The translations under genes and the position numbers were made by a program. DNA of 64,000 nucleotides from an uncultured virus (IMG/VR IMGVR_UViG_3300022900_000008) (lineage: Duplodnaviria > Heunggongvirae > Uroviricota > Caudoviricetes): the IMG/VR virus record IMGVR_UViG_3300022900_000008; one strand, written 5' to 3'. Every line of letters starts with the position of its first letter. Position 1 is the stretch's first letter. Positions 3-53,252 of the stretch are shown in pieces. The notes beneath the pieces are model-generated. The model saw nothing but the letters and a program-made list of their open reading frames with translations, had not been told where the DNA came from and made no database searches.

Positions 3-2060
3 CTTACGAAACCATCCGCGCCGAATCAAGACATCCCTATTGCGTTCGTTATCTCAAACAATGGATCAAACGGTGTTATTGCGGTACGCGCTTCTCGCCT
101 CGGTTATCACATGGACGAAGTTCACGACGTTGAGATTACCTCCATCGCGGACAAGGATCTACTCGTATACAACAACGCAAACTCTCGTTGGGAGAACGGT
201 AAGACGATTGGTGATCTTACGCTGACCGGTGAACTTAACGGTCCAGCAACTTTCTATATCGATCCAGCACCTCACGACCCAGACACCGACGGAGACACCA
301 ACGGCCTCGTCGTGATTCGTGGCGACCTACAGGTTGATGGAACAACGACAACTATTAACTCAACGACTGTTAATATTGATGACAAAAACATTATTCTTGC
401 GGATGGGGCATCAACTAATACTGAGGCTTCCGGTGGTGGTATCACTATTGCTGGATCGAGTGCTCAGTTAACTTATGACGGTGTCCAAGATCGTTGGAAC
501 ATGAACAAGGGTCTTGAGCTGCTTAGCGTTCCATTGGTGGTTGGCACTGGTTCCACCGACGTAGGAAGAATAGAAAACGACGCTGGCGTGTTCAGCATGA
601 CTGCATACACTGGTAGACAAATTGCGTTTGGCAATGATACTAACGGCGAGCATGTTCGTATTGATGCAGACGGCCAAGTTGGTATTGGCACAGACGATCC
701 ATCGTTGAGACTTGATGTCGCAACTTCTTCTGGTGCAGCAGGTAGTTTTAATAGACACCTAATGTTGTCTAGAGGAACGTCAGTTGGTGCTGCAATCGGT
801 ACTTACCGTGCGGCGACCAGTAACGACGTTGACAGGATGAGCCTAGGTATAGGATCTGCAGCAACCTTAATTGTGTCCGACCTTGGTCGTGTTGGTATTA
901 ACCAAGCATCTCCCAACCAACAGCTTGAAGTTAATGGCCAAATCACTTCTGTTGGATTTGGTCTACCAAACAGCGGCTCAGCTGGTTGGTATAAACTAGG
1001 AACCTTAACCGATTTTGTACAAGGCGGACGAAGTGTAAAATTTAGATTCGTTATGCACTCTGGATATAATGCGTCAGACACCCAGGATTATGACGTAGAG
1101 TTGTATATGAAAACGTCTAATGGCGGTTCAACGAATGCTGCTGGCGGCCTTTATAACAGTTGGACGATTTCCAGAGGATACTCTGGTGCGCAAGCTGAGT
1201 TCAAATGGAAGGACATTGGTGGGGACGATTATGAACTCTACATGATGGTCCCGGCTTTTGCCTTAGGATCATACTATACGATTGAAAAGAGTCATGGGCG
1301 TTGGGTGGTTGCTGCAACAACTGCTACGGATCCTGGTGCGGATAGCGCAACAGTGCTAGAGCCAACGGCAAGAGGTCAGAATCTATTAAGAGCTTATCGT
1401 GGCCACGGATTTGGCCAAACACAGCCTTACGTTGATCAAGATGGTATTCAGATTAATGGCGATAGCTCAGACTATAGCACATGGACCGCTCGTATCGTAG
1501 GTAGAAACAACTCTAAGAACGGCGTTCATATTGAGGTTGGGGCTAACTCTAATCAGAGACCACTTCGTATTAGGAATCATGATTCAACACAGGAGCTGTT
1601 TACCGTTAGGGCTGATGGTACTGTTGGCGTTGGTACCGACACTCCTAGCAATCCGCTTCAAGTTCTTAACTCGGGTACAACAGCAACTGTAAAAATCGAA
1701 AACTCTAGTGGGCAATCAACAGAAGGTGCATGTCTAATCCTAGATGCGAGTGGCCGTGGCACTGGTGTAGTCGATATCGATATCTTTAAGATTGAAAACT
1801 TCAACGGTGATTTATTTGGTATTAATAACGCTGGTGACTTAATTCCATATACATCCACTCAAGATCTAGGATCTACAGCAAATCCTTGGCAGAACATCTA
1901 TACGCAAGACTTGAACTTAAGCAACGAAAAGAGAGACGAGGGTAACTCTGTGGACGGCACGAAGGGCAACTGGACCATTCAGGAGGGTGACGAACACTTG
2001 TACATCATAAATAATAAGAGCGGTAAAAAGTATCGCTTTGCCCTGGAGGAGATTGAGTAA
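3..2060 (+). CDS. Tail fibre-like protein, 5'-truncated by the window edge
   Basis: Frame is open from position 3, upstream of the 111 ATG. Gly/Thr-rich, repeated GxVGIG(T/I)xxP fibre motifs; C-terminal DLGS..PWQNIYTQDLNLSN...GNWTIQEG motif typical of marine phage fibres. Confidence 0.75.
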   Translation, partial: LTKPSAPNQDIPIAFVISNNGSNGVIAVRASRLGYHMDEVHDVEITSIADKDLLVYNNANSRWENGKTIGDLTLTGELNGPATFYIDPAPHDPDTDGDTNGLVVIRGDLQVDGTTTTINSTTVNIDDKNIILADGASTNTEASGGGITIAGSSAQLTYDGVQDRWNMNKGLELLSVPLVVGTGSTDVGRIENDAGVFSMTAYTGRQIAFGNDTNGEHVRIDADGQVGIGTDDPSLRLDVATSSGAAGSFNRHLMLSRGTSVGAAIGTYRAATSNDVDRMSLGIGSAATLIVSDLGRVGINQASPNQQLEVNGQITSVGFGLPNSGSAGWYKLGTLTDFVQGGRSVKFRFVMHSGYNASDTQDYDVELYMKTSNGGSTNAAGGLYNSWTISRGYSGAQAEFKWKDIGGDDYELYMMVPAFALGSYYTIEKSHGRWVVAATTATDPGADSATVLEPTARGQNLLRAYRGHGFGQTQPYVDQDGIQINGDSSDYSTWTARIVGRNNSKNGVHIEVGANSNQRPLRIRNHDSTQELFTVRADGTVGVGTDTPSNPLQVLNSGTTATVKIENSSGQSTEGACLILDASGRGTGVVDIDIFKIENFNGDLFGINNAGDLIPYTSTQDLGSTANPWQNIYTQDLNLSNEKRDEGNSVDGTKGNWTIQEGDEHLYIINNKSGKKYRFALEEIE

Positions 2061-4387: not shown

Positions 4388-4638
4388 TGAAAATAGATAG
4401 ATACGGATCAGTAATGATACTAGAGCACAACGTGACTCGAGTGGTAGAAGGAGTTGAAGTGACTTTACCTAAAGCTTGGAGAGAGTTAGTACCGTGCGTG
4501 AAAATTGATGGCGTATGGCAAGATACAGACATATCTTCTGAAACTCAGGAAGTTCAAGACTTTTGCACTGCACAATGGAGTGATGCAATAAAACAAGAAT
4601 ATAAAGATCACACAGACGCATGCCTTGTGGTGGAATAA
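4387..4638 (+). CDS. Small hypothetical protein, possibly a fibre assembly chaperone
   Basis: ATG at 4387 overlaps the upstream TAA; D-I-S-x-E-x-x-E-V-Q-x-x-C-x-x-x-W motif. Confidence 0.45.
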   Translation: MKIDRYGSVMILEHNVTRVVEGVEVTLPKAWRELVPCVKIDGVWQDTDISSETQEVQDFCTAQWSDAIKQEYKDHTDACLVVE

Positions 4639-4665
4639 ATAAAGGTATAACGACAGGAAAATAAA

Positions 4666-5412
4666 ATGGCCGTACCTAACTCAAGACAGACTCTAATCGA
4701 TTATTGCCTTCGCACGCTGGGCGAGCCTGTGCTTGAGGTAAACGTCGATGAGGATCAACTAAGCGATCGTATCGACGAGGCACTTCAGTTCTATCAGGAG
4801 TACCATTCCGATGCGATTTATAAGGTGTACCATAAACATCAGATCACTGCGGCGGATATCTCAAACGAGTATATCTCTATCCCTGATGCGATTACAACCG
4901 TTCAAAGAATCTTTCCACTGAACGACGAGAACAGTTCAATCAATATGTTTGATGCTCGTTATCAGATTCACTTAAACGATATCTTTGATTTGCGAAACGC
5001 TGGTGCACTATCGAATTATTATCAGACTCAGCAGTACATGAGTACCATTGATCTGTTGCTTAACGGAACCGAGCAGGTTCGGTTTAACCGTCATATGAAC
5101 AGATTGTACATTGATGCTGACTGGGGAGAGGATCTTAAGGAGAACGATTACGTCATCGTTGATGCCTATCGTATCGTAGATCCTGATACACATACCGATG
5201 TATATAACGATATGTTCCTTAAGAGATATGCGGTTGCTCTGATTAAAAAGCAATGGGGCGCAAACCTAATTAAGTTTGAGGGCATGCAACTTCCAGGAGG
5301 TGTTACCCTGAACGGCAGACAACTGTATGATGATGCTGTAACCGAGATCGCAGCGGTCGAGGAACAGATGCAGCTTAAGTATGAAATGCCACCAGATTTC
5401 TTCATGGGATAA
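4666..5412 (+). CDS. gp13: Neck protein gp13
   Basis: LIDYCLRTLGEPVLEVNVDEDQ and KKQWGANLIKFEGMQLPGGVTLNG motifs; T4 synteny. Confidence 0.95.
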   Translation: MAVPNSRQTLIDYCLRTLGEPVLEVNVDEDQLSDRIDEALQFYQEYHSDAIYKVYHKHQITAADISNEYISIPDAITTVQRIFPLNDENSSINMFDARYQIHLNDIFDLRNAGALSNYYQTQQYMSTIDLLLNGTEQVRFNRHMNRLYIDADWGEDLKENDYVIVDAYRIVDPDTHTDVYNDMFLKRYAVALIKKQWGANLIKFEGMQLPGGVTLNGRQLYDDAVTEIAAVEEQMQLKYEMPPDFFMG

Positions 5413-20321: not shown

Positions 20322-20350
20322 TTTACATTCAACCTAAACTATAGTATAAT
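20322..20350 (+). promoter_or_regulatory. Early sigma70-type promoter for gp55
   Basis: TTTACA-N17-TATAAT. Confidence 0.8.
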
Positions 20351-23953: not shown

Positions 23954-24018
23954 TATGCATATTAGCTATTTACATCCATACGAAACTATGGTAGAATAGT
24001 ACTATCAAATGGAAGGAG
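23954..24018 (+). promoter_or_regulatory. Class A early promoter plus conserved leader
   Basis: TATGCATATTAGCTA-TTTACA(23969)-N17-TAGAAT(23992), then TATCAAATGGAAGGAG at 24003-24018. Confidence 0.85.
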
Positions 24019-24023
24019 TAGCC

Positions 24024-26195
24024 ATGAACGAGTCAAAGTCAATCCTAGCAAAACTGCTGGCGAAGGAGAACATCACCGTCCGCTATGGGAACTACCATAC
24101 GGCATCGTTTGACGTCCAAAATCGTATTCTTTGCTTACCTATGTGGAAGTATGATAACAAAGGTTTGCTTGATATGTTGGTCGGTCACGAAGTAGGTCAT
24201 GCCCTTTATACACCTGCCGAAGGTTGGCACGATTGTGAGATCGAAGTTCCTGGGATCCCTCGCGCGTTTATCAATATAGTCGAAGATATCCGTATTGAGA
24301 AAAAAATCCAGAGACAGTATCCTGGGTTGGTCCGTTCCTTTAAGCAAGGCTACGCACATCTGTTTGAGAACGACTTCTTTGAGATCGCAGGCAAAGACAT
24401 TTCGGATATGTCGTTTATGAATCGCCTTAATATTAAGTCCAAACTACGCGAACTTGTTGAGGTACCTTTTAACGCAATTGAACAGCAGTTCGTAGACATG
24501 GCTATGAACGTTGAGACTTGGGATGACGTTCTTAACGTATGCAGAGCCTTACTTGAGTTTGCTGAGCAGGAGGATAACAATGAAACTGAGGAGTTACAAT
24601 CCGCAGAGGCGCAAGCGCCGTCTTCAGGTCAAGATCAAGATGCTGAATCTCAAACTGAGGATTTTGGATCTGCTGACGAAGATGGTGGAGATGATACCGA
24701 CACTCAACAGCAGATGGATACAGATCAAAACAACGGATCTGATGCTGATGTTGATCAACATCCGAGTGGACACCGTCAAGACAGTGATGGCGACAAAACT
24801 GAGGATAACCAGAAGCAGTTAGGTGGTGAGGAAGGCAATCGTGAACTTGCTGATTCTCCACTAACCAACAAAAAGTCTCACCGTGTTGAGACTGATGAAG
24901 CTCTTCGTCGTAACGAAAGCAAGCTACTTGATACCGATGAAGTAGGATCACAGCCAAAGATCGTAAATGGTTTTCGTAAGGAACAGATCAACGATATGCT
25001 TGTATCCTACAAGGAAGTAATGGCTTCTCGTCAAAAGGTTATGGAGGCAAACCCTGGTGGTTACAAATACGACGTCTCTGAACACGCATCGGACTTCGCT
25101 GAGTTTATGGCTGAAACTAAAAAGGTAACATCAGTCATGGCTAAAGAGTTTGAGATGCGTAAAGCCGCATATCAATACAGCCGCGCTCAGACTGCACGCT
25201 CTGGTTCGTTGGACGTAAACAAGCTACACAGCTACAAGTACAACGACGATATCTTTAGCCGCGTTACAAAACTTGCTGATGCAAAGTCACACGGTATGAT
25301 TATGCTAGTTGACTACTCAGGCTCAATGCATGGGATCATGGGATCAGTCATCAAGCAAATACTTAACTTATCAACGTTCTGTAAGAAAGTCAATATACCG
25401 TTTGAGGTTTATGGCTTTACTAACGGCAGATGGGAAAACGCTAAAGCAACCCTACTTCCTGGTGATATTGACCACCGTGATGTTCGTATCTTTAACCTTT
25501 TATCTTCGTCTATGACTAAGACTGATTACGACACTGCGTTCTTTCAAATGTTTATGCAGACTTGTGGTTACGGTATGCCATACGGTAACTTCTGCGGTGA
25601 GTATGACCAACTTGGTGGTACTCCGCTAAACGAATCACTGATCGCAATGCCGCATATCGTACAACAGTTCAAGAGTCGTCATCCAGTGCAACGCGTCATT
25701 AACGTGATTATCACTGACGGTGATGCTCAGTACATGTACACAAAGGAAGATGCATCAACCGTTCATACTCGTGGTACAGCTGTTTCTATAAATAACAAAA
25801 TAGTTAAAGCGTTTAGCAACCATGACCTTACTGTGAAACTGACTGATAACCTTCGTTCATTGGGTTGTACTAATGTTGGGTTCTTCCTAGCAGAACGTCG
25901 TTATGACTCAAACCGAGCAATCAGTAGAGCAACAGGATCTTGGGATCAAGAGTCATTCCGTAACGCAAACAAAATGCTAAACAAGAATAAGTTTGCCTCA
26001 TACGATGACACACTTGGTTATGATCGTTTCTTCGTAGTGAAAGCGGATCGTCGCACACTTGATACTGATACTGAAGATTTTGCAATTCGTGAGAACGCAA
26101 CCAAAGGTGAGATCACTCGAGCCTTTAAGAAGTTCGCTAACAGTAAGAAAGGAAACCGCGTGCTCGCAGCTCAATTTGCTCAAATGGTGGCATGA
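24024..26195 (+). CDS. CobT-like protein: HExxH peptidase-like domain, acidic linker, VWA domain
   Basis: HEVGH, NIVEDIRIE, MIDAS DYSGSM and TDG; true start likely 24024 after GGAG. Confidence 0.85.
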   Translation: MNESKSILAKLLAKENITVRYGNYHTASFDVQNRILCLPMWKYDNKGLLDMLVGHEVGHALYTPAEGWHDCEIEVPGIPRAFINIVEDIRIEKKIQRQYPGLVRSFKQGYAHLFENDFFEIAGKDISDMSFMNRLNIKSKLRELVEVPFNAIEQQFVDMAMNVETWDDVLNVCRALLEFAEQEDNNETEELQSAEAQAPSSGQDQDAESQTEDFGSADEDGGDDTDTQQQMDTDQNNGSDADVDQHPSGHRQDSDGDKTEDNQKQLGGEEGNRELADSPLTNKKSHRVETDEALRRNESKLLDTDEVGSQPKIVNGFRKEQINDMLVSYKEVMASRQKVMEANPGGYKYDVSEHASDFAEFMAETKKVTSVMAKEFEMRKAAYQYSRAQTARSGSLDVNKLHSYKYNDDIFSRVTKLADAKSHGMIMLVDYSGSMHGIMGSVIKQILNLSTFCKKVNIPFEVYGFTNGRWENAKATLLPGDIDHRDVRIFNLLSSSMTKTDYDTAFFQMFMQTCGYGMPYGNFCGEYDQLGGTPLNESLIAMPHIVQQFKSRHPVQRVINVIITDGDAQYMYTKEDASTVHTRGTAVSINNKIVKAFSNHDLTVKLTDNLRSLGCTNVGFFLAERRYDSNRAISRATGSWDQESFRNANKMLNKNKFASYDDTLGYDRFFVVKADRRTLDTDTEDFAIRENATKGEITRAFKKFANSKKGNRVLAAQFAQMVA

Positions 26196-26387: not shown

Positions 26388-26437
26388 TTTACATTGGTAG
26401 AAGACTATGGTATAATAGTACTATCAAATGGAAGGAG
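26388..26437 (+). promoter_or_regulatory. Class A early promoter plus conserved leader
   Basis: TTTACA(26388)-N17-TATAAT(26411); TATCAAATGGAAGGAG at 26422-26437. Confidence 0.85.
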
Positions 26438-26445
26438 ACTATATT

Positions 26446-27606
26446 ATGACTACATTAACTCTTGCACAGGACACTATCGTCAGATCTTTGGCGTCATCCG
26501 ACAAGACAGAATTTACACCAGCCGAGCTTATGGCTACGGCGTCTAACCTTGGCTTTCCTAAGTCAGAAGGTTACAAACTCGCTCACGCAATGCCTAAGGT
26601 TCGTCGTGGCGTATATAATCTCGAAGCGGTTATACTACCGTTCAGGGATGAACAACATAAGGAAAATGTTTCAGTGGCATCGTCAGTACAATCAGTTTTG
26701 AACGATGAGGTATATGTACCTTCACTTGATACCACTTACGTAAAGTGGGGTCACTACAAGGACGTTGAGTCAATCGTTAAGTCTGGTATCTTTTATCCAG
26801 TATATGTCGCTGGTCTGTCAGGCAACGGTAAGACTATGATGGTTGAGCAGGCTTGTGCCAAAACCAATCGTCAATACGTTCGTGTACAAATTACTCCTGA
26901 GACCGATGAGGACGATCTTATCGGTGGTTTCCGTTTAGTTAACGGTGAGACTGTTTTCTCAGAAGGTCCAGTCATCAAGGCAATGAAGCAAGGCGCAATC
27001 CTTCTCATTGACGAGATTGACCGTGGATCAAACAAGATCATGTGTCTACAAGGTGTTCTTGAAGGCAAGCCTGTTATGATCAAAAAGACAGGTCAAGTCG
27101 TTAGTCCCTCAAAAGGATTTAACGTTATTGCAACAGCAAACACTAAAGGTAAGGGTTCTGATGATGGTCGTTTCGTAGCAGCAACGATTATCGATGAAGC
27201 TTTCCTTGAGCGTTTCACGATCACAATGGAACAACCGTATCCAACACTTGCGACTGAAAAGCGTATCATTATCAATCACATGAAAAAGTTTGATTGTATT
27301 GATGAGGATTTCGCAGTACTACTGTCGCAGTGGTCTGAAACTATTCGTAAGACATATGATGATGACGGTATCGATGAATTGATCTCGACTCGTCGTTTGT
27401 GTCACATCGTCCAAACCTTCTCGATCTTTAATGATCGTATGAAGTCAATCGGACTTTGTGTAAACCGTTTTGACCAAGATACTAAGGAAGCATTCCTTGA
27501 TCTGTATAGCAAGGTCGATGTAACGGTCACTGACGGTTCAGAAACAACAACTTCTGAAACCGATGTTCAACTTGATGATATTTTAGAGGATGCATTGAAT
27601 GGTTAA
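26446..27606 (+). CDS. cobS: CobS/MoxR-like AAA+ ATPase
   Basis: GLSGNGKT, ETDEDDLIGG, LLIDEID, ATANTKGKG, AFLERF. Confidence 0.9.
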   Translation: MTTLTLAQDTIVRSLASSDKTEFTPAELMATASNLGFPKSEGYKLAHAMPKVRRGVYNLEAVILPFRDEQHKENVSVASSVQSVLNDEVYVPSLDTTYVKWGHYKDVESIVKSGIFYPVYVAGLSGNGKTMMVEQACAKTNRQYVRVQITPETDEDDLIGGFRLVNGETVFSEGPVIKAMKQGAILLIDEIDRGSNKIMCLQGVLEGKPVMIKKTGQVVSPSKGFNVIATANTKGKGSDDGRFVAATIIDEAFLERFTITMEQPYPTLATEKRIIINHMKKFDCIDEDFAVLLSQWSETIRKTYDDDGIDELISTRRLCHIVQTFSIFNDRMKSIGLCVNRFDQDTKEAFLDLYSKVDVTVTDGSETTTSETDVQLDDILEDALNG

Positions 27607-29131: not shown

Positions 29132-29208
<77 letters not shown>

Positions 29209-33182: not shown

Positions 33183-33211
33183 TTTACATCCTAGCGGAAC
33201 TATGGTATAAT
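33183..33211 (+). promoter_or_regulatory. Early-type promoter for gp43
   Basis: GG-TTTACA-N17-TATAAT. Confidence 0.8.
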
Positions 33212-37090: not shown

Positions 37091-37156
37091 TATGCATATT
37101 GGCTATTTACATTCCCTTCAAACTATAGTATAATAGTAGCTATCAGATGGAAGGAG
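37091..37156 (+). promoter_or_regulatory. Class A early promoter plus conserved leader (one mismatch)
   Basis: TATGCATATTGGCTA-TTTACA(37106)-N17-TATAAT(37129); TATCAGATGGAAGGAG at 37141-37156. Confidence 0.85.
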
Positions 37157-37165
37157 AACTAACTG

Positions 37166-37714
37166 ATGGCTTATTATGACAAGGTGAATACCGATATCAA
37201 ATTAAAACTTTATGTTGAACTTATACTCGAAAATCATCCAAACTTTGCTGAAGGGACCCCGTTCCGTGAAGCATTAATTCAAAAACCACAAGTCTTTAAT
37301 ATTGAACATCTTATTGAGGATATGATGGCCATCAGCTCAGGCGGCCAATACAATTTCATTGATGGAATACACGAAGACTTTGATGATGGTTCAGAATGCA
37401 AGACTGGTACACTTCACCTTAATGGTCTTTCGTCAGCAGAAATCACAAATGTTAAATCTCAGAACGGTGTACTTAAGAAAGGTGCTGTTCGCTGTGTTGT
37501 ACTTAATCCTCGTTTGGAAAAATTACATTTTGTCTTTATCCCTAAAAAGGCACTACTTGACTTGATGACTACTAAAAAAGGTACCATTAAGAAATCAAAA
37601 TCAGCTTGGTTAAAATACACTGATAAGAAAGATTCTTTTGATCGTTGCTTTGAGAAATACGGTATCACTGAGTTTGATACATTCAAAGAACTTGCTATGG
37701 AGAAAAACCGCTAA
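37166..37714 (+). CDS. Hypothetical protein, possible PD-(D/E)xK nuclease
   Basis: E..IE helix followed by DFDDGSECKT. Confidence 0.45.
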   Translation: MAYYDKVNTDIKLKLYVELILENHPNFAEGTPFREALIQKPQVFNIEHLIEDMMAISSGGQYNFIDGIHEDFDDGSECKTGTLHLNGLSSAEITNVKSQNGVLKKGAVRCVVLNPRLEKLHFVFIPKKALLDLMTTKKGTIKKSKSAWLKYTDKKDSFDRCFEKYGITEFDTFKELAMEKNR

Positions 37715-38031
37715 TGAAATACGACGAAGGTAAACCAAAGATCCATCTAGTACCACCCGAGGCAATCATCGAGGCTGCACGGGTTTTTGGCTTTGGTGCA
37801 GAAAAGTATGGTGAGAATAACTGGCGCAAAGACATACATAAGTTCCCTGTCTCGCGACACTATTCATCCATTCAACGCCACTTGATGGCTTATATGATGG
37901 GAGAGAATGATGATCCTGAAAGCGGTCTTCCACATCTGTCTCACGCCTTGACTCAAATGATGATTCTTATCATGACGACTCAAGAAGGTGATCCCGAAAC
38001 AACTGATGACCGTTTTAAGGAGAGTGAATAA
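37714..38031 (+). CDS. dATP/dGTP diphosphohydrolase-like domain protein (DUF5664-like)
   Basis: KYDEGKP, FGAEKYGENNW, RHL, DPESGLPHLSHA. Confidence 0.85.
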   Translation: MKYDEGKPKIHLVPPEAIIEAARVFGFGAEKYGENNWRKDIHKFPVSRHYSSIQRHLMAYMMGENDDPESGLPHLSHALTQMMILIMTTQEGDPETTDDRFKESE

Positions 38032-38693
38032 TGATCTTACCTACCGTAAAGGATATTCGTCAATTCTTTATTGATGAACTTAATGATGAAGCGTATACTA
38101 TCGACAAGACAGGTCAAAAAACCATTGAAATGCTTGGCGCAAGTTTCCTTGCTACTGAACCTGCTATCTTTGGTAAACCAGTGCAAAGTTATATTGATGC
38201 TGAGTTGGATTGGTACGAATCTCAATCCACCAACATTTTTGATATACATGGTGATGATAAGGAACCACCTGCAGCATGGAAGTATGCGGCCAACCAACAC
38301 GGAGAAATCAATTCAAACTATGGCCATTTGATTTTCTCTGAAAAGTATAATCGTCAATACGATTCAGTGCTAGGCGAGTTGTCGGACAGTCCTGATGGCC
38401 GTCGTGCTACTATGATCTACAACAGACCGTCAATCTGGGCTGAATACAATGAGAACGGAAAGTCAGACTTTATCTGCACCAACGCTGTTACTTATTATAT
38501 TCGCAATGATGAACTGCAGGCTGTTGTTCAAATGAGATCCAATGATGTTGTCTTTGGATACAAAAACGATTATGCATGGCAACAACACGTACTTGAAATG
38601 TTGGCCGATGACCTTGAGATAGCTCCAGGCTTTATTACATGGCAGGTTCAAAACCTTCATGTGTATGAACGCCACTTTGATCTGGTAAAATGA
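38031..38693 (+). CDS. gp42: dCMP hydroxymethylase (T4 gp42-like)
   Basis: Colinear with T4 gp42 as recalled: DKTGQKTIE, GEINSNYG, SDFICTN (catalytic Cys), MRSNDVVFGYKNDYAWQ (Asp at the dCMP-specificity position), LHVYERHF. Confidence 0.92.
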   Translation: MILPTVKDIRQFFIDELNDEAYTIDKTGQKTIEMLGASFLATEPAIFGKPVQSYIDAELDWYESQSTNIFDIHGDDKEPPAAWKYAANQHGEINSNYGHLIFSEKYNRQYDSVLGELSDSPDGRRATMIYNRPSIWAEYNENGKSDFICTNAVTYYIRNDELQAVVQMRSNDVVFGYKNDYAWQQHVLEMLADDLEIAPGFITWQVQNLHVYERHFDLVK

Positions 38694-38694
38694 G

Positions 38695-39156
38695 ATGAGT
38701 GCTGATTGGGATAGAAGATACCTAGCACTGGCTAAAGAGATATCTAGTTGGTCAAAGGATCCGTCAAGAAAGATTGGCGCAGTCGCGGTTGGAACTAAAG
38801 GTCAAGTTTTGGCTCAAGGCTACAATGGATTCCCTCGTGGAATCGCAGACAGTCGTGATCGTTATAACGATCGCCCTGTCAAGTATAAGTATGTTGTTCA
38901 TGCTGAGATGAACTGCATATATAATGCTACTTATAATGGTGTATCGCTTGACGGTTCAATTATGTACGTATGGGGATTACCTATGTGTTCTGATTGCGCC
39001 AAAGGTGTTATACAAGTTGGAGTGAAACACGTCCTCTGGGGTACGGATATGCTTATCCCAAAAACCTGGGTGGACTCTTTGGAAGATACTACAGATATGT
39101 TTAGAGAGGCTGGTGTGAAAATTACTTGTTTACATTCGCCAGGATCTGTGGTATAA
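38695..39156 (+). CDS. cd: dCMP deaminase
   Basis: WSKDPS, GYNGFPRG, HAEMN, PMCSDC zinc motifs. Confidence 0.93.
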   Translation: MSADWDRRYLALAKEISSWSKDPSRKIGAVAVGTKGQVLAQGYNGFPRGIADSRDRYNDRPVKYKYVVHAEMNCIYNATYNGVSLDGSIMYVWGLPMCSDCAKGVIQVGVKHVLWGTDMLIPKTWVDSLEDTTDMFREAGVKITCLHSPGSVV

Positions 39157-49770: not shown

Positions 49771-49834
49771 TATGCATTTTTCTATTTACATCCGCTAAAA
49801 CATAGTGTATAATGGTACTATCAAATGGAAGGAA
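49771..49834 (+). promoter_or_regulatory. Class A early promoter plus conserved leader
   Basis: TATGCAT...TTTACA(49785)-N17-TATAAT(49808); TATCAAATGGAAGGA from 49819. Confidence 0.85.
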
Positions 49835-49842
49835 ACTATGTT

Positions 49843-50181
49843 ATGATTAAGATTTACCAAATTCAACTGACCGAAGATCAAGTCAACCTTATCAATGAAA
49901 CTGGCGACCACAACTCGGTTCCAGCTCAAAAGGCTAAGCTTGATGCTTCTATCCTTGGCAAGTTCGCTGCCGAAAACTTCAAGTTCTACACTGAGGCATA
50001 TCATGTCTACAGCGACGATCTTGAGGAAGCCTTCGAGGCAACCAATCTTTGGAACAAGCAAGAGATCGTGGACGTAATCGGAGATCGTGGTTACAGTTCA
50101 TCAACTGGCGATATCTTTGAGAAGAACGGTGAGTTCTTCCTTTGCGCCAACTTCGGATTCAATCAAGTGGAGGTAGCATAA
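49843..50181 (+). CDS. Early hypothetical protein (YodL-like)
   Basis: DLEEAFEATN...SSSTGDI motif. Confidence 0.6.
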   Translation: MIKIYQIQLTEDQVNLINETGDHNSVPAQKAKLDASILGKFAAENFKFYTEAYHVYSDDLEEAFEATNLWNKQEIVDVIGDRGYSSSTGDIFEKNGEFFLCANFGFNQVEVA

Positions 50182-51130: not shown

Positions 51131-51180
51131 TTTACATTAGCTAAAGACTATGGTATAATGGTTATATCAAATGGAAGGAG
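51131..51180 (+). promoter_or_regulatory. Class A early promoter plus conserved leader
   Basis: TTTACA(51131)-N17-TATAAT(51154); TATCAAATGGAAGGAG at 51165-51180. Confidence 0.85.
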
Positions 51181-51188
51181 AATACATT

Positions 51189-51521
51189 ATGTTTCAACAA
51201 GTAAATACTAAAGCCCGCAGTTCCAAGGATTATCTTGGATCAATCTATGCTGCCGATGCGGCCGGCATGCTTCAACTCGAAGATCTTCGTCGTATGGTTA
51301 AGAACTTGAATACCGATCTTCGTAAATTCGGTGCCACTGATTCTAAAGGTAACGCCATTCAGTTCCGAGTACGAGTCTGTGGTCGTGAACCTATTGAGAC
51401 TGGAACCGCTACGCATTGGCTCTTTGGTACCGCAAAGGGTCGTAAGTACGACTGGGGCGGTAACTGCATCGGCGGTTTAGCTAACGCTTCTCGTTTTGAT
51501 ATCTACCTCTATAGGAGATAA
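51189..51521 (+). CDS. Early hypothetical protein
   Basis: First ORF after the class A promoter; ends FDIYLYRR. Confidence 0.65.
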   Translation: MFQQVNTKARSSKDYLGSIYAADAAGMLQLEDLRRMVKNLNTDLRKFGATDSKGNAIQFRVRVCGREPIETGTATHWLFGTAKGRKYDWGGNCIGGLANASRFDIYLYRR

Positions 51522-51523
51522 TC

Positions 51524-51733
51524 ATGGGAAGAGTTAAGGACTATTTCTGGGACGAGATCGAGGCTGCAAGGGAACAAGAATACCTTGAGCCTGATTTTGA
51601 ATCATATTACGAAAATTTGGAGTCACAAAATGCTACTGAAGATAAAGGGCGGAACCAAGAAGCAGAGAATGTTGGCGGAGGATGCGATAGTGTTCGTGGC
51701 CAACAAGTTCATGCCACGGATGACAACTCTTGA
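51524..51733 (+). CDS. Small hypothetical protein
   Basis: MGRVKDY start with AGGAG RBS; 3' part overlaps the next gene. Confidence 0.45.
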   Translation: MGRVKDYFWDEIEAAREQEYLEPDFESYYENLESQNATEDKGRNQEAENVGGGCDSVRGQQVHATDDNS

Positions 51734-52079
51734 TGTAGAGCTACGCATTCGTAAGTTCAACAAGAGTGGTGAGGAAGGCGTCGTCGGATGGTGTACATGG
51801 GAAGACAGCAATGTCCGACCCAGAACCTTCTTGATTGAGTCTGACTCTCAGCAGAATACAACGTCGTTCATTAAGACCGTCATTCATGAGATGGTCCACG
51901 TTAAGCAGTATGCTACGGGTCAAATGAAGGAACGTTTCAAGATGGGCCATAGGGTCTATTGGAAAGACAAGGATTATACTGGCACGAGTTACTCAAAGAC
52001 TCCATGGGAGCGTGAGGCATATCGTAAACAGGAAAGTTTAACAAAGGAATTCCTTAGGGAATGGTTAGATGTAGAATAA
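51630..52079 (+). CDS. Putative zinc metallopeptidase (HExxH)
   Basis: TVIHEMVHVKQY and PWEREAY. Confidence 0.75.
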   Translation: MLLKIKGGTKKQRMLAEDAIVFVANKFMPRMTTLDVELRIRKFNKSGEEGVVGWCTWEDSNVRPRTFLIESDSQQNTTSFIKTVIHEMVHVKQYATGQMKERFKMGHRVYWKDKDYTGTSYSKTPWEREAYRKQESLTKEFLREWLDVE

Positions 52080-52080
52080 G

Positions 52081-52160
52081 AAGCCCGTTTTAAGGGACAA
52101 GAAACTTCCATTTGATAAACTTGGGGCGGCGGGGTGTAAACTTTGTCGCCTTTCTTTTTT
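52081..52160 (+). ncRNA. Candidate structured RNA/3'UTR antisense to the early-gene leader, ending in a terminator
   Basis: CCC/GGG hairpin; CAAG[AAACTTCCATTTGATAAA]CTTG stem-loop; GGCGGCGGGG-TGTAAA-CTTTGTCGCC plus T-run. Confidence 0.5.
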
Positions 52161-52190
52161 TATAAATAGTAGTGTAACTTCGGAGGTAAC

Positions 52191-53252
52191 ATGGCATACG
52201 ACTTTTTTCCAAAGAGCGAACGTGAGTTAGCTAATAAGATTAAGGGATTTCCTGCTGACAATCAGTTGGAGATCATACGGCTGTTTAACTTCTTAAAGAA
52301 AAAAGCACGTGGGCTCGATGCGCCAATCAACCTAGATTTGAAAAAGCCATCCAATGTCAATGTAAGTAGACAACTCGATGGCGATGTTCGTATCGCAGAC
52401 GTATCCCGCGGAGCTAAACTTAAGAAGGTTAAACTCAAATTTGGTAATGGCTCTTCAGGAAACCGAGGAGCTAAGAACAGGGGTAACCTATTCGAGGAGC
52501 AGTTTGCTAATGCTCTTTTGGACTGGTGGGCTGGACGACCCGTTGATGGCAAAATGTTAAAGGCTATTGAGGATCTCGATAAGACCTACAAACTAGGTGA
52601 CTCCAAGAAGTTCATCGTTAAGGTTGAGGGTGGAGAAAACACCAGAAGGCCATTGCAGTTTGATTCAGGTATCTACCTTGACAATCCAAAGGGTCAAGGA
52701 AACGATGTTGGTCAATCAGTAACCGACATTACACTTGAGACGGACAAGGGGCCAATCTTTCTCAGCTTGAAACTCGGTGGTACGACTACGTTCTTTAACG
52801 TTGGTGTTCGTACTATCCTAACTCCACAAGAAATTCAAAAAGGTCAGATTACGAATCCAAAGGGTCTTTCCTTGTTGAAACTATTCGGAGTTGACCAAGA
52901 AAAGTTCTGTAAGATCTTCACCGGTGATCTACCAGGAGGAGAGATTATTAAGAATGCGCCATACGACAAAGGTATGATGAAAAAGCTGATGGAGTCTGGC
53001 ATTGGATTCAACTACCATATCATTCATAAGTTTCCTGCTCGTATCCTAAGTAAGAAGATGGATAAAAAGGCAATGCAGTCAGCGGCTAAGACTGGAGATC
53101 TTACGATCTTTTATGGCGGTAAAGGCGGTAGCGGTAAACGAATAGACATGGAGTTTTCATCTCCTACATATTCATTTAAGATTAACATCAGAGACACACA
53201 AGGTAAGGATGGATTCCCTACTCGTATGATGTGTGACTTCAAATACGTATAG
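52191..53252 (+). CDS. Late protein with a restriction-endonuclease-like core
   Basis: RGNLFEE...TDITL...LSLK pattern; TATAAATA at 52161. Confidence 0.5.
   Translation: MAYDFFPKSERELANKIKGFPADNQLEIIRLFNFLKKKARGLDAPINLDLKKPSNVNVSRQLDGDVRIADVSRGAKLKKVKLKFGNGSSGNRGAKNRGNLFEEQFANALLDWWAGRPVDGKMLKAIEDLDKTYKLGDSKKFIVKVEGGENTRRPLQFDSGIYLDNPKGQGNDVGQSVTDITLETDKGPIFLSLKLGGTTTFFNVGVRTILTPQEIQKGQITNPKGLSLLKLFGVDQEKFCKIFTGDLPGGEIIKNAPYDKGMMKKLMESGIGFNYHIIHKFPARILSKKMDKKAMQSAAKTGDLTIFYGGKGGSGKRIDMEFSSPTYSFKINIRDTQGKDGFPTRMMCDFKYV

What the first reader, a model, noticed from the sequence alone, without database searches (positions are those of the whole stretch)
52081..52160. Candidate phage sRNA whose loop is the exact antisense of a leader/RBS shared by five early transcripts
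Seen: five promoters are followed by TATCA[A/G]ATGGAAGGA (24003, 26422, 37141, 49819, 51165), covering the predicted +1 region and the start of the Shine-Dalgarno. At 52105-52117 the + strand reads CTTCCATTTGATA, a perfect 13-nt reverse complement (one mismatch that becomes a G-U pair for the 37141 copy). It sits in the 18-nt loop of a CAAG/CTTG stem, between a small hairpin and a G-U-rich intrinsic terminator. Inference: a 3'UTR-derived or standalone RNA that silences a whole early regulon (VWA/AAA pair, modification operon, small early genes) by occluding the RBS, giving a feedback timer; it could also pair in cis with the 5' end of the 51165 transcript. I know of no described T4-like system of this type.
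Basis: partly seen in the sequence, partly recalled or inferred. Interest (0 to 1): 0.8.

Follow-up and report, generated by a model that had tools for sequence, protein, structure and literature searches.

The report
Anti-leader sequence ending a phage early operon
At the end of an early operon of an uncultured T4-like marine phage sits a short RNA stretch that is the exact mirror of the start shared by five early messages, and related phages keep such a stretch matched to their own, different message starts, so it is probably an RNA-pairing control of early genes that nobody has yet tested.

Summary
Five + strand copies of TATCA[A/G]ATGGAAGGA sit inside a ~60-nt early promoter/leader cassette. 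Its 13-nt reverse complement lies at 52105-52117, between the stop codon of the last early gene and an intrinsic terminator.

Alone it is weak: a sense-strand 13-mer of equal length occurs by chance at 1199-1213. The CAAG/CTTG stem is not robust and not conserved.

Comparison with relatives supports it.
- Where flanking genes are 47-80% identical per 30 columns, the block from the antisense core through terminator and late promoter is 57/60 identical.
- In a more distant phage (G011) the same position holds a 12-bp hairpin. Its 18-nt loop is a perfect 13-nt antisense of that phage's own, different leader.
- A third lineage has a CCUU-repeat loop matching its own leaders.
- Each element pairs best with its own lineage's leaders.

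Best reading (0.55): a 3'UTR RNA element pairing with early leaders, in trans or in cis. RNA contigs could not show a discrete species.

The scan noted the same design before on other phage DNA. My searches found no published description.

The parts
52080..52123 (+). 3' untranslated stretch between the stop codon of the last early gene (ends 52079) and the terminator stem
   Evidence: The 5' half (52080-52104) is not conserved in relatives.
52105..52117 (+). Anti-leader core CTTCCATTTGATA, a perfect complement of the leader TATCAAATGGAAG. The 11 nt at 52106-52116 are invariant in the G002 and G004 relatives.
   Evidence: predicted unpaired or in a loop
52123..52162 (+). Intrinsic terminator: G-U-rich 13-pair hairpin (52123-52152) and T run. 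It ends the transcripts from the promoters at 49785 and 51131.
   Evidence: conserved in relatives
52161..52168 (+). TATAAATA box. It matches the T4-type late promoter consensus (recalled) and lies 22 nt upstream of the 353-aa gene.
   Evidence: The same box precedes the homologous gene in most of the loci shown.
52191..53252 (+). Downstream gene of unknown function (353 aa, phrog_8438), probably late. It served as the synteny anchor.
51131..51191 (+). Early promoter/leader cassette 5 (TTTACA 51131, TATAAT 51154, leader 51165-51179, ATG 51189). It is the nearest one upstream of the element, about 1 kb, so cis pairing is possible.
49785..49845 (+). Early promoter/leader cassette 4 (leader 49819-49833, ATG 49843)
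37106..37168 (+). Early promoter/leader cassette 3 (leader 37141-37155, G variant). It heads an operon with a dATP/dGTP diphosphohydrolase N-terminal domain protein, a thymidylate-synthase-like protein and a dCMP-deaminase-like protein.
26388..26448 (+). Early promoter/leader cassette 2 (leader 26422-26436), ahead of an AAA_5 ATPase (phrog_249)
23969..24026 (+). Early promoter/leader cassette 1 (leader 24003-24017, -10 box TAGAAT), ahead of a 724-aa protein (phrog_459)
51189..51521 (+). Gene A (110 aa, no family). In the distant relatives its homolog directly precedes the anti-leader hairpin, and its last codons form the 5' arm of the stem.
51630..52079 (+). Last early gene of the operon, an HEMVH-motif protein (phrog_10499, unknown function)

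Best explanation
The stretch 52105-52117 is a functional RNA element in the 3' untranslated end of an early operon of a T4-like myophage.

It is transcribed from the early promoters at 49785 and 51131 and sits unpaired just 5' of the terminator hairpin. It base-pairs with the first 12-13 nt of the shared leader carried by five early mRNAs. It could do so either as the stable terminator-bearing 3' end of the operon RNA acting in trans, or in cis with the 5' end of its own mRNA.

The most likely consequence is reduced translation or altered stability of these mRNAs as early RNA accumulates, a delayed brake on a subset of early genes.

Shown: the complementarity, its position, its conservation, and the lineage-specific matching in relatives. 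Inferred: that it is transcribed and single-stranded. Not shown: pairing in vivo, the direction of the effect, trans versus cis action, and any processing.
For: 1. Best site in the window. On the transcribed strand it is the longest complement to the leaders (13 nt; next 11, then 10s, all inside coding regions). The five leaders are 5 of the top 6 duplex targets of 52098-52123 among 31,985 windows.

2. Constraint. Against the G004 relative, columns 52112-52170 are 57/60 identical, while flanking coding DNA scores 14-24 of 30 per block. In both G002 and G004 the left edge of the conserved block is the antisense core itself. The leader is unchanged in these phages.

3. Same place, different sequence. 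In G011 (downstream gene 58% aa identity) the leaders read CTATAAAATGGAAAAGGAA. The 3' end before the terminator, TATAAATA and the homologous gene is a 12-bp hairpin with an 18-nt loop holding TTCCTTTTCCATT. This is a perfect 13-nt antisense of that leader (region z -4.3). It is the longest complement in the 27.9-kb record. Four leaders are its top four targets, by 4 kcal/mol, among 13,933 windows.

4. Third lineage (G014/L048/L396, plus L395). A different stem (CGUCGG/CCGACG) presents a CCUU-repeat loop. It holds the longest complement (13 nt) to its own leaders in the 55.6-kb record.

5. Own versus foreign leaders, longest perfect complement:
- window type: 11-13 own, 8 and 5 foreign
- G011: 13 own, 7 to the window's leaders
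- L396: 11 own, 9 and 7 foreign
- L404: 7 own, 5 or fewer foreign
By my arithmetic on the table, the identity assignment of the four lineages gives the highest sum of the 24 permutations (44; next 40).

6. Shuffled elements reaching the observed match to own leaders: 0/1000 for W, G002, G004 and G011; 2/1000 for L396; 3/1000 for L395; 30/1000 for L404.

7. The element pairs far better with the leaders (-18.4 to -20.7 kcal/mol) than with the downstream gene's RBS (-8.5).

8. The conserved 11-nt pairing begins at the A predicted as transcription start (my count from the -10 box). The complementarity therefore lies in transcribed sequence.
Against: - A non-cassette 13-mer match of the same length exists on the control side of the same window (1199-1213). 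The window alone proves nothing.
- With the whole 44-nt stretch as query, simple duplex energies do not single out the leaders: seven windows unrelated to them score at least as well as the best leader window (-22.7 at 24004).
- In G014 two purine-rich coding windows outrank the leaders, which are 3rd, 5th and 14th of 27,802. In L404 the leader is only 8th of 3,230, and its 7-nt match is little more than an anti-Shine-Dalgarno.
- In the window lineage no stable hairpin presents the motif. In G002 part of it can pair locally.
- Only three to four lineages are available and they are related, so the covariation argument rests on few independent events.
- Relatives at 65% identity of the downstream gene (L019-L025) and at 37% of gene A (L392/L393/L405) have no such element.
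- A trial on two further cassette-bearing records gave one negative (G013, 12 promoters) and one ambiguous result (G015).
- RNA-library contigs run across the terminator in 4 of 4 runs laid, and cannot show a discrete RNA.
Confidence: 0.55

Rival explanations
1. Chance match carried along by a conserved block. The terminator and late promoter are the selected parts, or the block spread recently by recombination. On this view the 13-mer beside them is a coincidence, and the CU-rich loops in relatives are unrelated.
For: A chance 13-mer occurs elsewhere in the window. Against G002 the high-identity block extends about 100 nt into the downstream gene, as a recent recombination tract would. CU-rich loops match purine-rich sequence easily. 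L404 is weak.
Against: The left edge of the block is the antisense core in two separate comparisons. G011 has a different 13-mer, perfect to its own leader, at the same position in a hairpin loop. Shuffles reach the match 0/1000 times in four of seven elements. Own leaders always match better than foreign ones.
Confidence: 0.2
2. A double-stranded DNA operator. A phage protein binds the sequence around +1 of the five early promoters, and an inverted copy of that site lies about 45 bp upstream of the late promoter. Sites and protein would change together between lineages.
For: A DNA site works in either orientation and would give the same own-versus-foreign pattern. The site overlaps the predicted start point of the early promoters, a common operator position.
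Against: The part of the leader that is matched shifts between lineages: +1 to +12 here, +5 to +17 in G011, and the purine run next to the start codon in G014. In three lineages the motif is displayed in the loop of a strong hairpin whose stems differ. That is an RNA feature. In G014 the element is a simple CCUU repeat.
Confidence: 0.1
3. Relic or recombination scar of an inverted promoter cassette. Conserved cassettes of T4-type phages recombine (PeSL model), and a fragment was left in reverse orientation.
For: The cassettes are repeated about 60-nt homologies of the kind shown to recombine in T4-type phages (PMC2839356, passages read). Homology between relatives breaks exactly at the motif. 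Gene content between gene A and the element differs between lineages.
Against: Similarity to the cassette ends sharply after 13 nt on both sides (row minus52117). A relic would decay, but the core is invariant where neighbouring genes diverged 25-30%. Distant lineages have their own matched versions.
Confidence: 0.07
4. Anti-Shine-Dalgarno for the downstream late gene. In early transcripts that read through the terminator, the CU-rich stretch would pair with the late gene's RBS and keep it silent. This is as recalled for T4 genes e, soc and 49.
For: CUUCC can pair with the GGAGG of the 52191 gene using one G-U. RNA-library contigs do cross the terminator, though they may be DNA or late RNA.
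Against: The duplex with the late RBS region is -8.5 kcal/mol, against -18.4 to -20.7 with the leaders. The same gap is seen in all six lineages tested. In L395 and L404 the element precedes different late genes.
Confidence: 0.05
5. Decayed or weak minus-strand promoter (TTTACA at 52140-52135, 17 nt, TATCAA at 52117-52112) making an antisense transcript into the last early gene.
Against: The -10 lacks the T at position 6, and the site is not listed by the promoter scan. In G002 both hexamers are worse (TATACA, GATCAA). In G004 the -10 is GATCAA. G011, G014 and L404 have nothing comparable at that place. The minus strand of the region does not fold better than shuffles (z 0.15).
Confidence: 0.03

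Closest known systems
PeSL cassettes (promoter-early stem-loop) of T4-type phages; Arbiol et al. 2010, PMC2839356 (passages read), Comeau et al. 2014, PMC4122927 (abstract read)
   Same: Repeated, highly conserved intergenic cassettes with an AT-rich stretch, a sigma-70-like early promoter, a Shine-Dalgarno and the start codon, placed before small genes of unknown function. Gene content between them differs among relatives.
   Different: The five cassettes here show no stem-loop component in the simple scans. Those passages and that abstract describe PeSLs as promoter/terminator and recombination sites and mention no antisense partner of the leader.
icaR mRNA 5'-3' UTR pairing in Staphylococcus aureus; Ruiz de los Mozos et al. 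2013, PMC3868564 (abstract read)
   Same: A short pyrimidine-rich motif in a 3'UTR is complementary to the 5' leader/Shine-Dalgarno region of the same mRNA. In icaR the pairing blocks initiation and creates an RNase III substrate.
   Different: icaR is a one-gene bacterial case with a long 3'UTR. Here the target is shared by five mRNAs of a lytic phage. The pairing covers mainly the 5' end rather than the SD, and nothing has been tested.
c4 antisense RNA of phages P1/P7 (77-nt processed RNA; Citron and Schuster 1992, seen only as a reference in PMC8546580; mechanism recalled)
   Same: A phage RNA encoded in the same operon as its targets, with exposed sequences complementary to a ribosome-binding region.
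   Different: c4 lies upstream of its targets in a temperate phage's immunity operon and controls one downstream gene pair. It is not a 3' end element and not one-to-many.
3'UTR-derived bacterial small RNAs that share the terminator of the parent mRNA (recalled class; a phage-related example, CisR, PMC13250501, search listing only)
   Same: A seed just upstream of the mRNA's own intrinsic terminator with a long U tail, and no separate promoter.
   Different: Processing, stability and chaperone dependence are unknown here. The host is unknown.
T4 RegB endoribonuclease (PMC3014915, passages read)
   Same: A phage device that inactivates many early mRNAs together, through a signal in their translation initiation regions (GGAG). 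The leaders here also carry GGAG.
   Different: RegB is a protein nuclease. Here the common signal would be read by an RNA. Whether this phage has regB could not be tested, because the whole genome is not held.

Membership tests
PeSL cassettes of T4-type phages | Conserved sigma-70-like early promoter with an AT-rich upstream stretch, repeated in intergenic regions | tested here: met
   Five copies with TTTACA-17-TA(T/G)AAT and an A/T-rich upstream stretch. More copies occur in close relatives.
PeSL cassettes of T4-type phages | Stem-loop (terminator/attenuator) component within or beside the promoter | tested here: inconclusive
   No terminator-like hairpin is listed at any of the 5 cassettes, and alignment A1 shows no conserved inverted repeat. 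The scan only finds GC-rich hairpins followed by a T run.
PeSL cassettes of T4-type phages | Shine-Dalgarno and start codon at the 3' end of the cassette | tested here: met
   GGAG or GGAA lies 7-10 nt before the ATG in 5 of 5.
3'UTR-derived small RNA | Lies between a stop codon and the mRNA's own intrinsic terminator, with no promoter of its own | tested here: met
   Stop at 52079, terminator at 52123-52162, and no promoter-like site between 51600 and 52100 on the + strand.
3'UTR-derived small RNA | A discrete stable RNA species released from the mRNA | not testable with these tools
   Only assembled contigs of RNA libraries were available. They bridge the region in 4 of 4 runs and cannot show ends.
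3'UTR-derived small RNA | Conserved, accessible seed complementary to the targets | tested here: met
   The 11-nt core is invariant in 3 sub-lineages. It is unpaired or in a loop in the predicted folds of all 7 elements. Own-lineage matching is shown.
icaR-type 5'-3' UTR pairing | 3'UTR motif complementary to the leader/SD of the same mRNA | tested here: met
   The leader at 51165 and the element at 52105 lie on one predicted transcript of about 1 kb, with a 13-nt perfect complement.
icaR-type 5'-3' UTR pairing | Pairing blocks initiation and triggers RNase III cleavage | not testable with these tools
   Needs toeprinting, RNase III assays or reporters.
T4-type occlusion of a late gene's RBS in early read-through RNA (recalled) | Upstream sequence pairs with the late gene's own RBS | tested here: not met
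   -8.5 kcal/mol with the late RBS against -18.4 to -20.7 with the leaders. The same holds in 6 of 6 lineages.
Any curated RNA family (Rfam 15) | Match at the gathering score | tested here: not met
   Nothing at the element in the window or in 5 relatives' loci; only tRNAs were found. The permissive search gave sub-threshold hits only (L20_leader 23.9 of 58.7 bits; BjrC68 21.4 of 39).

The most novel reading that the evidence does not exclude
A clade of marine T4-like phages tags a chosen subset of early mRNAs with a private 5' leader. It turns them down together with an anti-leader RNA made from the 3' end of an early operon. This would be a one-to-many RNA timer doing the job that the RegB nuclease does in T4. 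Tag and anti-tag would co-evolve between phages. The earlier notes of this scan on other uncultured phages would then be further members of a widespread, undescribed regulatory principle.
Probability: 0.3. Interest if true: 0.85.

Novelty: new variant of a known kind. Interest (0 to 1): 0.66.

Why it matters
How lytic T4-like phages outside the E. coli models shut off early protein synthesis is largely unknown. For T4 itself, a review says the shut-down of early promoters is not completely understood, and it credits the RegB nuclease with inactivating early mRNAs (PMC3014915, passages read).

An RNA that addresses a whole set of early messages through a shared leader would be a new layer of phage developmental timing. 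It would give a function to the strikingly conserved leaders of PeSL-like cassettes.

It would also offer a compact, programmable tag/anti-tag pair. The claim can be tested directly with reporters in a laboratory strain, because everything needed is under 100 nt.

Tried and rejected
- Public phage genomes: no near match; only distant matches inside the downstream gene.
- The window's own genome is not held. G001 is a 100% identical fragment and adds nothing.
Of the 80 loci fetched, 3 were this phage. The other 77 had no terminator beside the match and looked like chance matches in coding DNA.
- Scan for the end of gene A: 4 new loci, all unrelated.
- Single-protein search with gene A found only close relatives. 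The alignment search added L392/L393/L395. The metagenome scan added L397 and L403/L404.
- RNA runs: 24 rows, 20 of them RNA. Four were laid, all as contigs. Contig breaks at 51161-51194 coincide with the repeated cassette and are assembly breaks, not starts. No statement on expression, ends or abundance can be made.
- Duplex ranking with the whole 44-nt 3'UTR was not specific. I then used the part predicted single-stranded. That choice was made after seeing the first result.
- Consensus fold of the three hairpin lineages: the L041 stem was misaligned, so its pair counts are not used. The stems come from the single folds.
- Trial on other cassette-bearing records. G013 has 12 promoters and no convincing antisense site. 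G015 has an 11-nt antisense in the loop of a hairpin whose stem holds a 14-bp perfect inverted repeat. That hairpin lies inside a probable 73-aa membrane-protein ORF with no PHROG family, where pyrimidine-rich codons are expected. It is not counted.
- The minus-strand promoter and the late-RBS occlusion readings were rejected (see rivals).
The computation was redone from stored files.

Full report
WHAT IS THERE

The window comes from a T4-like myophage. It encodes a tail sheath, a gp43-type DNA polymerase, a DnaB-like helicase and a ribonucleotide reductase. In a crude ORF map, 77 of 80 ORFs lie on the + strand.

The motif TATCA[A/G]ATGGAAGGA occurs exactly five times on the + strand, at 24003, 26422, 37141, 49819 and 51165. 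Allowing 2 mismatches gives 7 matches against 0.37 expected.

Each copy is the 3' part of a cassette of about 60 nt: an A/T-rich stretch, TTTACA, 17 nt, TA(T/G)AAT, 5-6 nt, the motif, then 7-10 nt to an ATG.

At least four other promoters of the same quality (TTTACA-17-TATAAT at 20322, 27960, 33183 and 39129) lack the motif. The leader therefore marks a subset of early transcription units and is not simply part of the promoter.

The genes behind the five cassettes are:
- a 724-aa protein (phrog_459);
- an AAA_5 ATPase (phrog_249);
- a nucleotide-metabolism operon (dATP/dGTP diphosphohydrolase N-terminal domain, thymidylate-synthase-like, dCMP-deaminase-like);
- two runs of small genes without a family.

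The + strand at 52105-52117 reads CTTCCATTTGATA, the perfect reverse complement of the first 13 nt of the motif. It lies in the 44 nt between the stop codon of the last gene of the operon and an intrinsic terminator. That gene is an HEMVH-motif protein (phrog_10499) ending at 52079. The terminator has 13 pairs, is G-U rich, spans 52123-52152 and is followed by a T run.

Overlapping the end of the T run is TATAAATA (52161-52168). This is the T4-type late promoter consensus as I recall it. It is followed by a 353-aa gene of unknown function. The element thus sits at an early/late boundary. It would be transcribed as the 3' end of the RNAs started at 49785 and 51131. No other promoter-like site precedes it.

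HOW MUCH IS CHANCE

The CAAG/CTTG stem with its 18-nt loop is in the minimum-energy fold but not in the centroid. The region folds no better than shuffles (z -1.6).

A 13-mer alone is also weak evidence. On the control side, meaning sense-like copies outside the cassettes, the same window contains a 13-mer (1199-1213, inside a tail-fibre-like gene) and two 12-mers. With the window alone, I would have called the finding unproven.

RELATIVES WITH THE SAME LEADER

Relatives of the downstream gene were fetched. Phages at 91% (G002 type) and 85% (G004 type) protein identity keep the leader unchanged. They keep TTCCATTTGAT exactly, followed by the same terminator and late promoter. The sequence just 5' of the core, and the bases flanking it, differ.

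In 30-column blocks, the window against G004 scores 27/30 and 30/30 from the core to the late promoter. The coding DNA scores 14-24 of 30 on the left and 20-24 of 30 on the right. In both comparisons the conserved block begins at the antisense core.

The pairing shrinks from 13 to 11-12 nt in these relatives. There is no compensatory change here, only conservation. The small 5' hairpin and the CAAG/CTTG stem are not kept. The minus-strand promoter look-alike gets worse (TATACA, GATCAA).

RELATIVES WITH A DIFFERENT LEADER

G011 (downstream gene 58% identical) has early cassettes whose leader reads CTATAAAATGGAAAAGGAA.

At the same position, meaning after the last early gene and before a terminator, TATAAATA and the homologous gene, G011 has a 12-bp hairpin. 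The 5' arm of its stem is the last codons of the homolog of window gene A (51189-51521). Its 18-nt loop holds TTCCTTTTCCATT, a perfect 13-nt antisense of G011's own leader (z -4.3; 0 of 200 shuffles fold as well).

Only 7 nt of this are shared with the window's element. The rest matches each phage's own leader.

A third lineage (G014, with loci L048/L396/L046, plus L395) has a different stem (CGUCGG/CCGACG). Its loop consists of CCUU repeats (z -4.9 and -5.1). Its leaders carry AAGGAAGGAAA variants.

In L395 and L404 the downstream late gene is a different one. The element therefore goes with the early operon end, not with the late gene.

A fourth lineage (L404) has CTCTCCA after the stop of the HExxH gene, against a leader with TGGAGAG. 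That is only 7 nt.

NUMBERS

Longest perfect complement, element against leader sets:
- Window-type elements: 13, 11 and 12 to window-type leaders; 8 to G011 and L396 leaders; 5 to L404 leaders.
- G011 element: 13 to its own and to L396 leaders; 7 to the window's.
- L396 element: 11 to its own; 9 to the window's; 7 to G011's.
- L404 element: 7 to its own; 5 or fewer to the others.

Shuffled elements reach the observed match to own leaders 0/1000 times for W, G002, G004 and G011. The figures are 2/1000 for L396, 3/1000 for L395 and 30/1000 for L404.

Within whole records, the element is the longest complement to the leaders on the transcribed strand in three cases: the window (64 kb), G011 (27.9 kb) and G014 (55.6 kb, 13 nt once all its leaders are used). 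It is not the longest in L404.

Duplex-energy ranking gives:
- Window single-stranded part: leaders are 5 of the top 6 of 31,985 windows.
- G011 loop: leaders are the top four of 13,933 windows.
- G014 loop: leaders are 3rd, 5th and 14th of 27,802.
- L404: the leader is 8th of 3,230.
- Whole 44-nt window 3'UTR: not specific.

READING

An RNA-level function is the simplest account of four facts together:
- a sequence that is conserved where its neighbours are not;
- a position in transcribed, unpaired RNA next to a terminator;
- display in hairpin loops with different stems in relatives;
- a match to each phage's own leader, in a register that shifts between lineages.

A DNA operator would explain the own-versus-foreign pattern, but not the hairpins or the shifting register. 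A cassette relic would not stay conserved. Pairing with the late gene's RBS is much weaker than with the leaders in all six lineages tested.

I cannot tell trans from cis. All five leaders match equally, which favours trans. The nearest cassette is on the same predicted RNA, which allows cis, as in icaR (PMC3868564, abstract).

In this phage the duplex covers the 5' end of the message and touches only the first bases of AGGAG. The effect could therefore be on stability as much as on initiation. In G011 and G014 the duplex covers the purine run before the start codon.

WHAT IS MISSING

There is no expression evidence. RNA-library contigs cover and cross the region in 4 of 4 runs laid, but contigs show neither ends nor strand.

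Only three to four related lineages carry the design. Several relatives lack it. A trial on two other cassette-bearing phage fragments gave one negative and one ambiguous result.

KNOWN THINGS

The cassettes resemble PeSLs of T4-type phages (PMC2839356, passages; PMC4122927, abstract). The stem-loop part was not found here.

No Rfam family matches the element.

Full-text searches for a phage small RNA acting on T4-like early leaders gave nothing relevant. A 2025 review of phage-derived small RNAs has no occurrence of 'phage T4', 'T4-like', 'lytic phage' or 'early genes' (PMC12197685, term search only).

Earlier notes of this scan describe the same design in other uncultured T4-like phages. They concern other DNA, are unchecked, and are not counted as evidence here.

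VERDICT

A regulon-silencing small RNA remains a hypothesis. It would be a new variant of antisense control.

Noticed in passing
window 1199-1213 (+): A sense-strand near-copy of the leader (GTTCAAATGGAAGGA; 13 nt identical) lies inside the 649-aa tail-fibre-like gene. It is the second-best predicted target of the anti-leader stretch. It is probably chance.
   Followed up: partly
window 20322, 27960, 33183, 39129 (+) and 20277 (-): Further TTTACA-17-TATAAT promoter matches (11 of 12) that lack the shared leader. The one at 33183 lies just upstream of the DNA polymerase gene.
   Followed up: no
L392/L393/L405 and G013 (cassettes at G013 18375, 19262, 20320, 22082): In these more distant phages the early cassettes carry TATAAATT or TTTAAATT a few bases after the -10 box. 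This is close to the T4-type late promoter box (recalled), so the cassettes may be tandem early/late promoters.
   Followed up: no
L421 (G015) 2366-2423: A hairpin whose stem holds a 14-bp perfect inverted repeat (15-16 pairs in the predicted folds) and whose 25-27-nt loop holds an 11-nt antisense of the next cassette's leader. It lies inside a probable 73-aa two-helix membrane-protein ORF.
   Followed up: partly
window 29132-29205 (+): One tRNA gene (Rfam tRNA, 68.5 bits). Three tandem tRNAs occur in the relative's fragment L421 at 4527-4787.
   Followed up: no
window 37714-39156 (+): The operon behind cassette 3 encodes three nucleotide-metabolism proteins: a dATP/dGTP diphosphohydrolase N-terminal domain protein, a thymidylate-synthase-family protein and a dCMP-deaminase-family protein. 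The set could serve base modification.
   Followed up: no
window 51524-52079 compared with L041 2588-2937: Between gene A and the anti-leader element the window lineage has two extra genes, a 69-aa ORF and the HExxH protein. G011 and G014 lack them there. This is a gene insertion between conserved regulatory pieces.
   Followed up: partly
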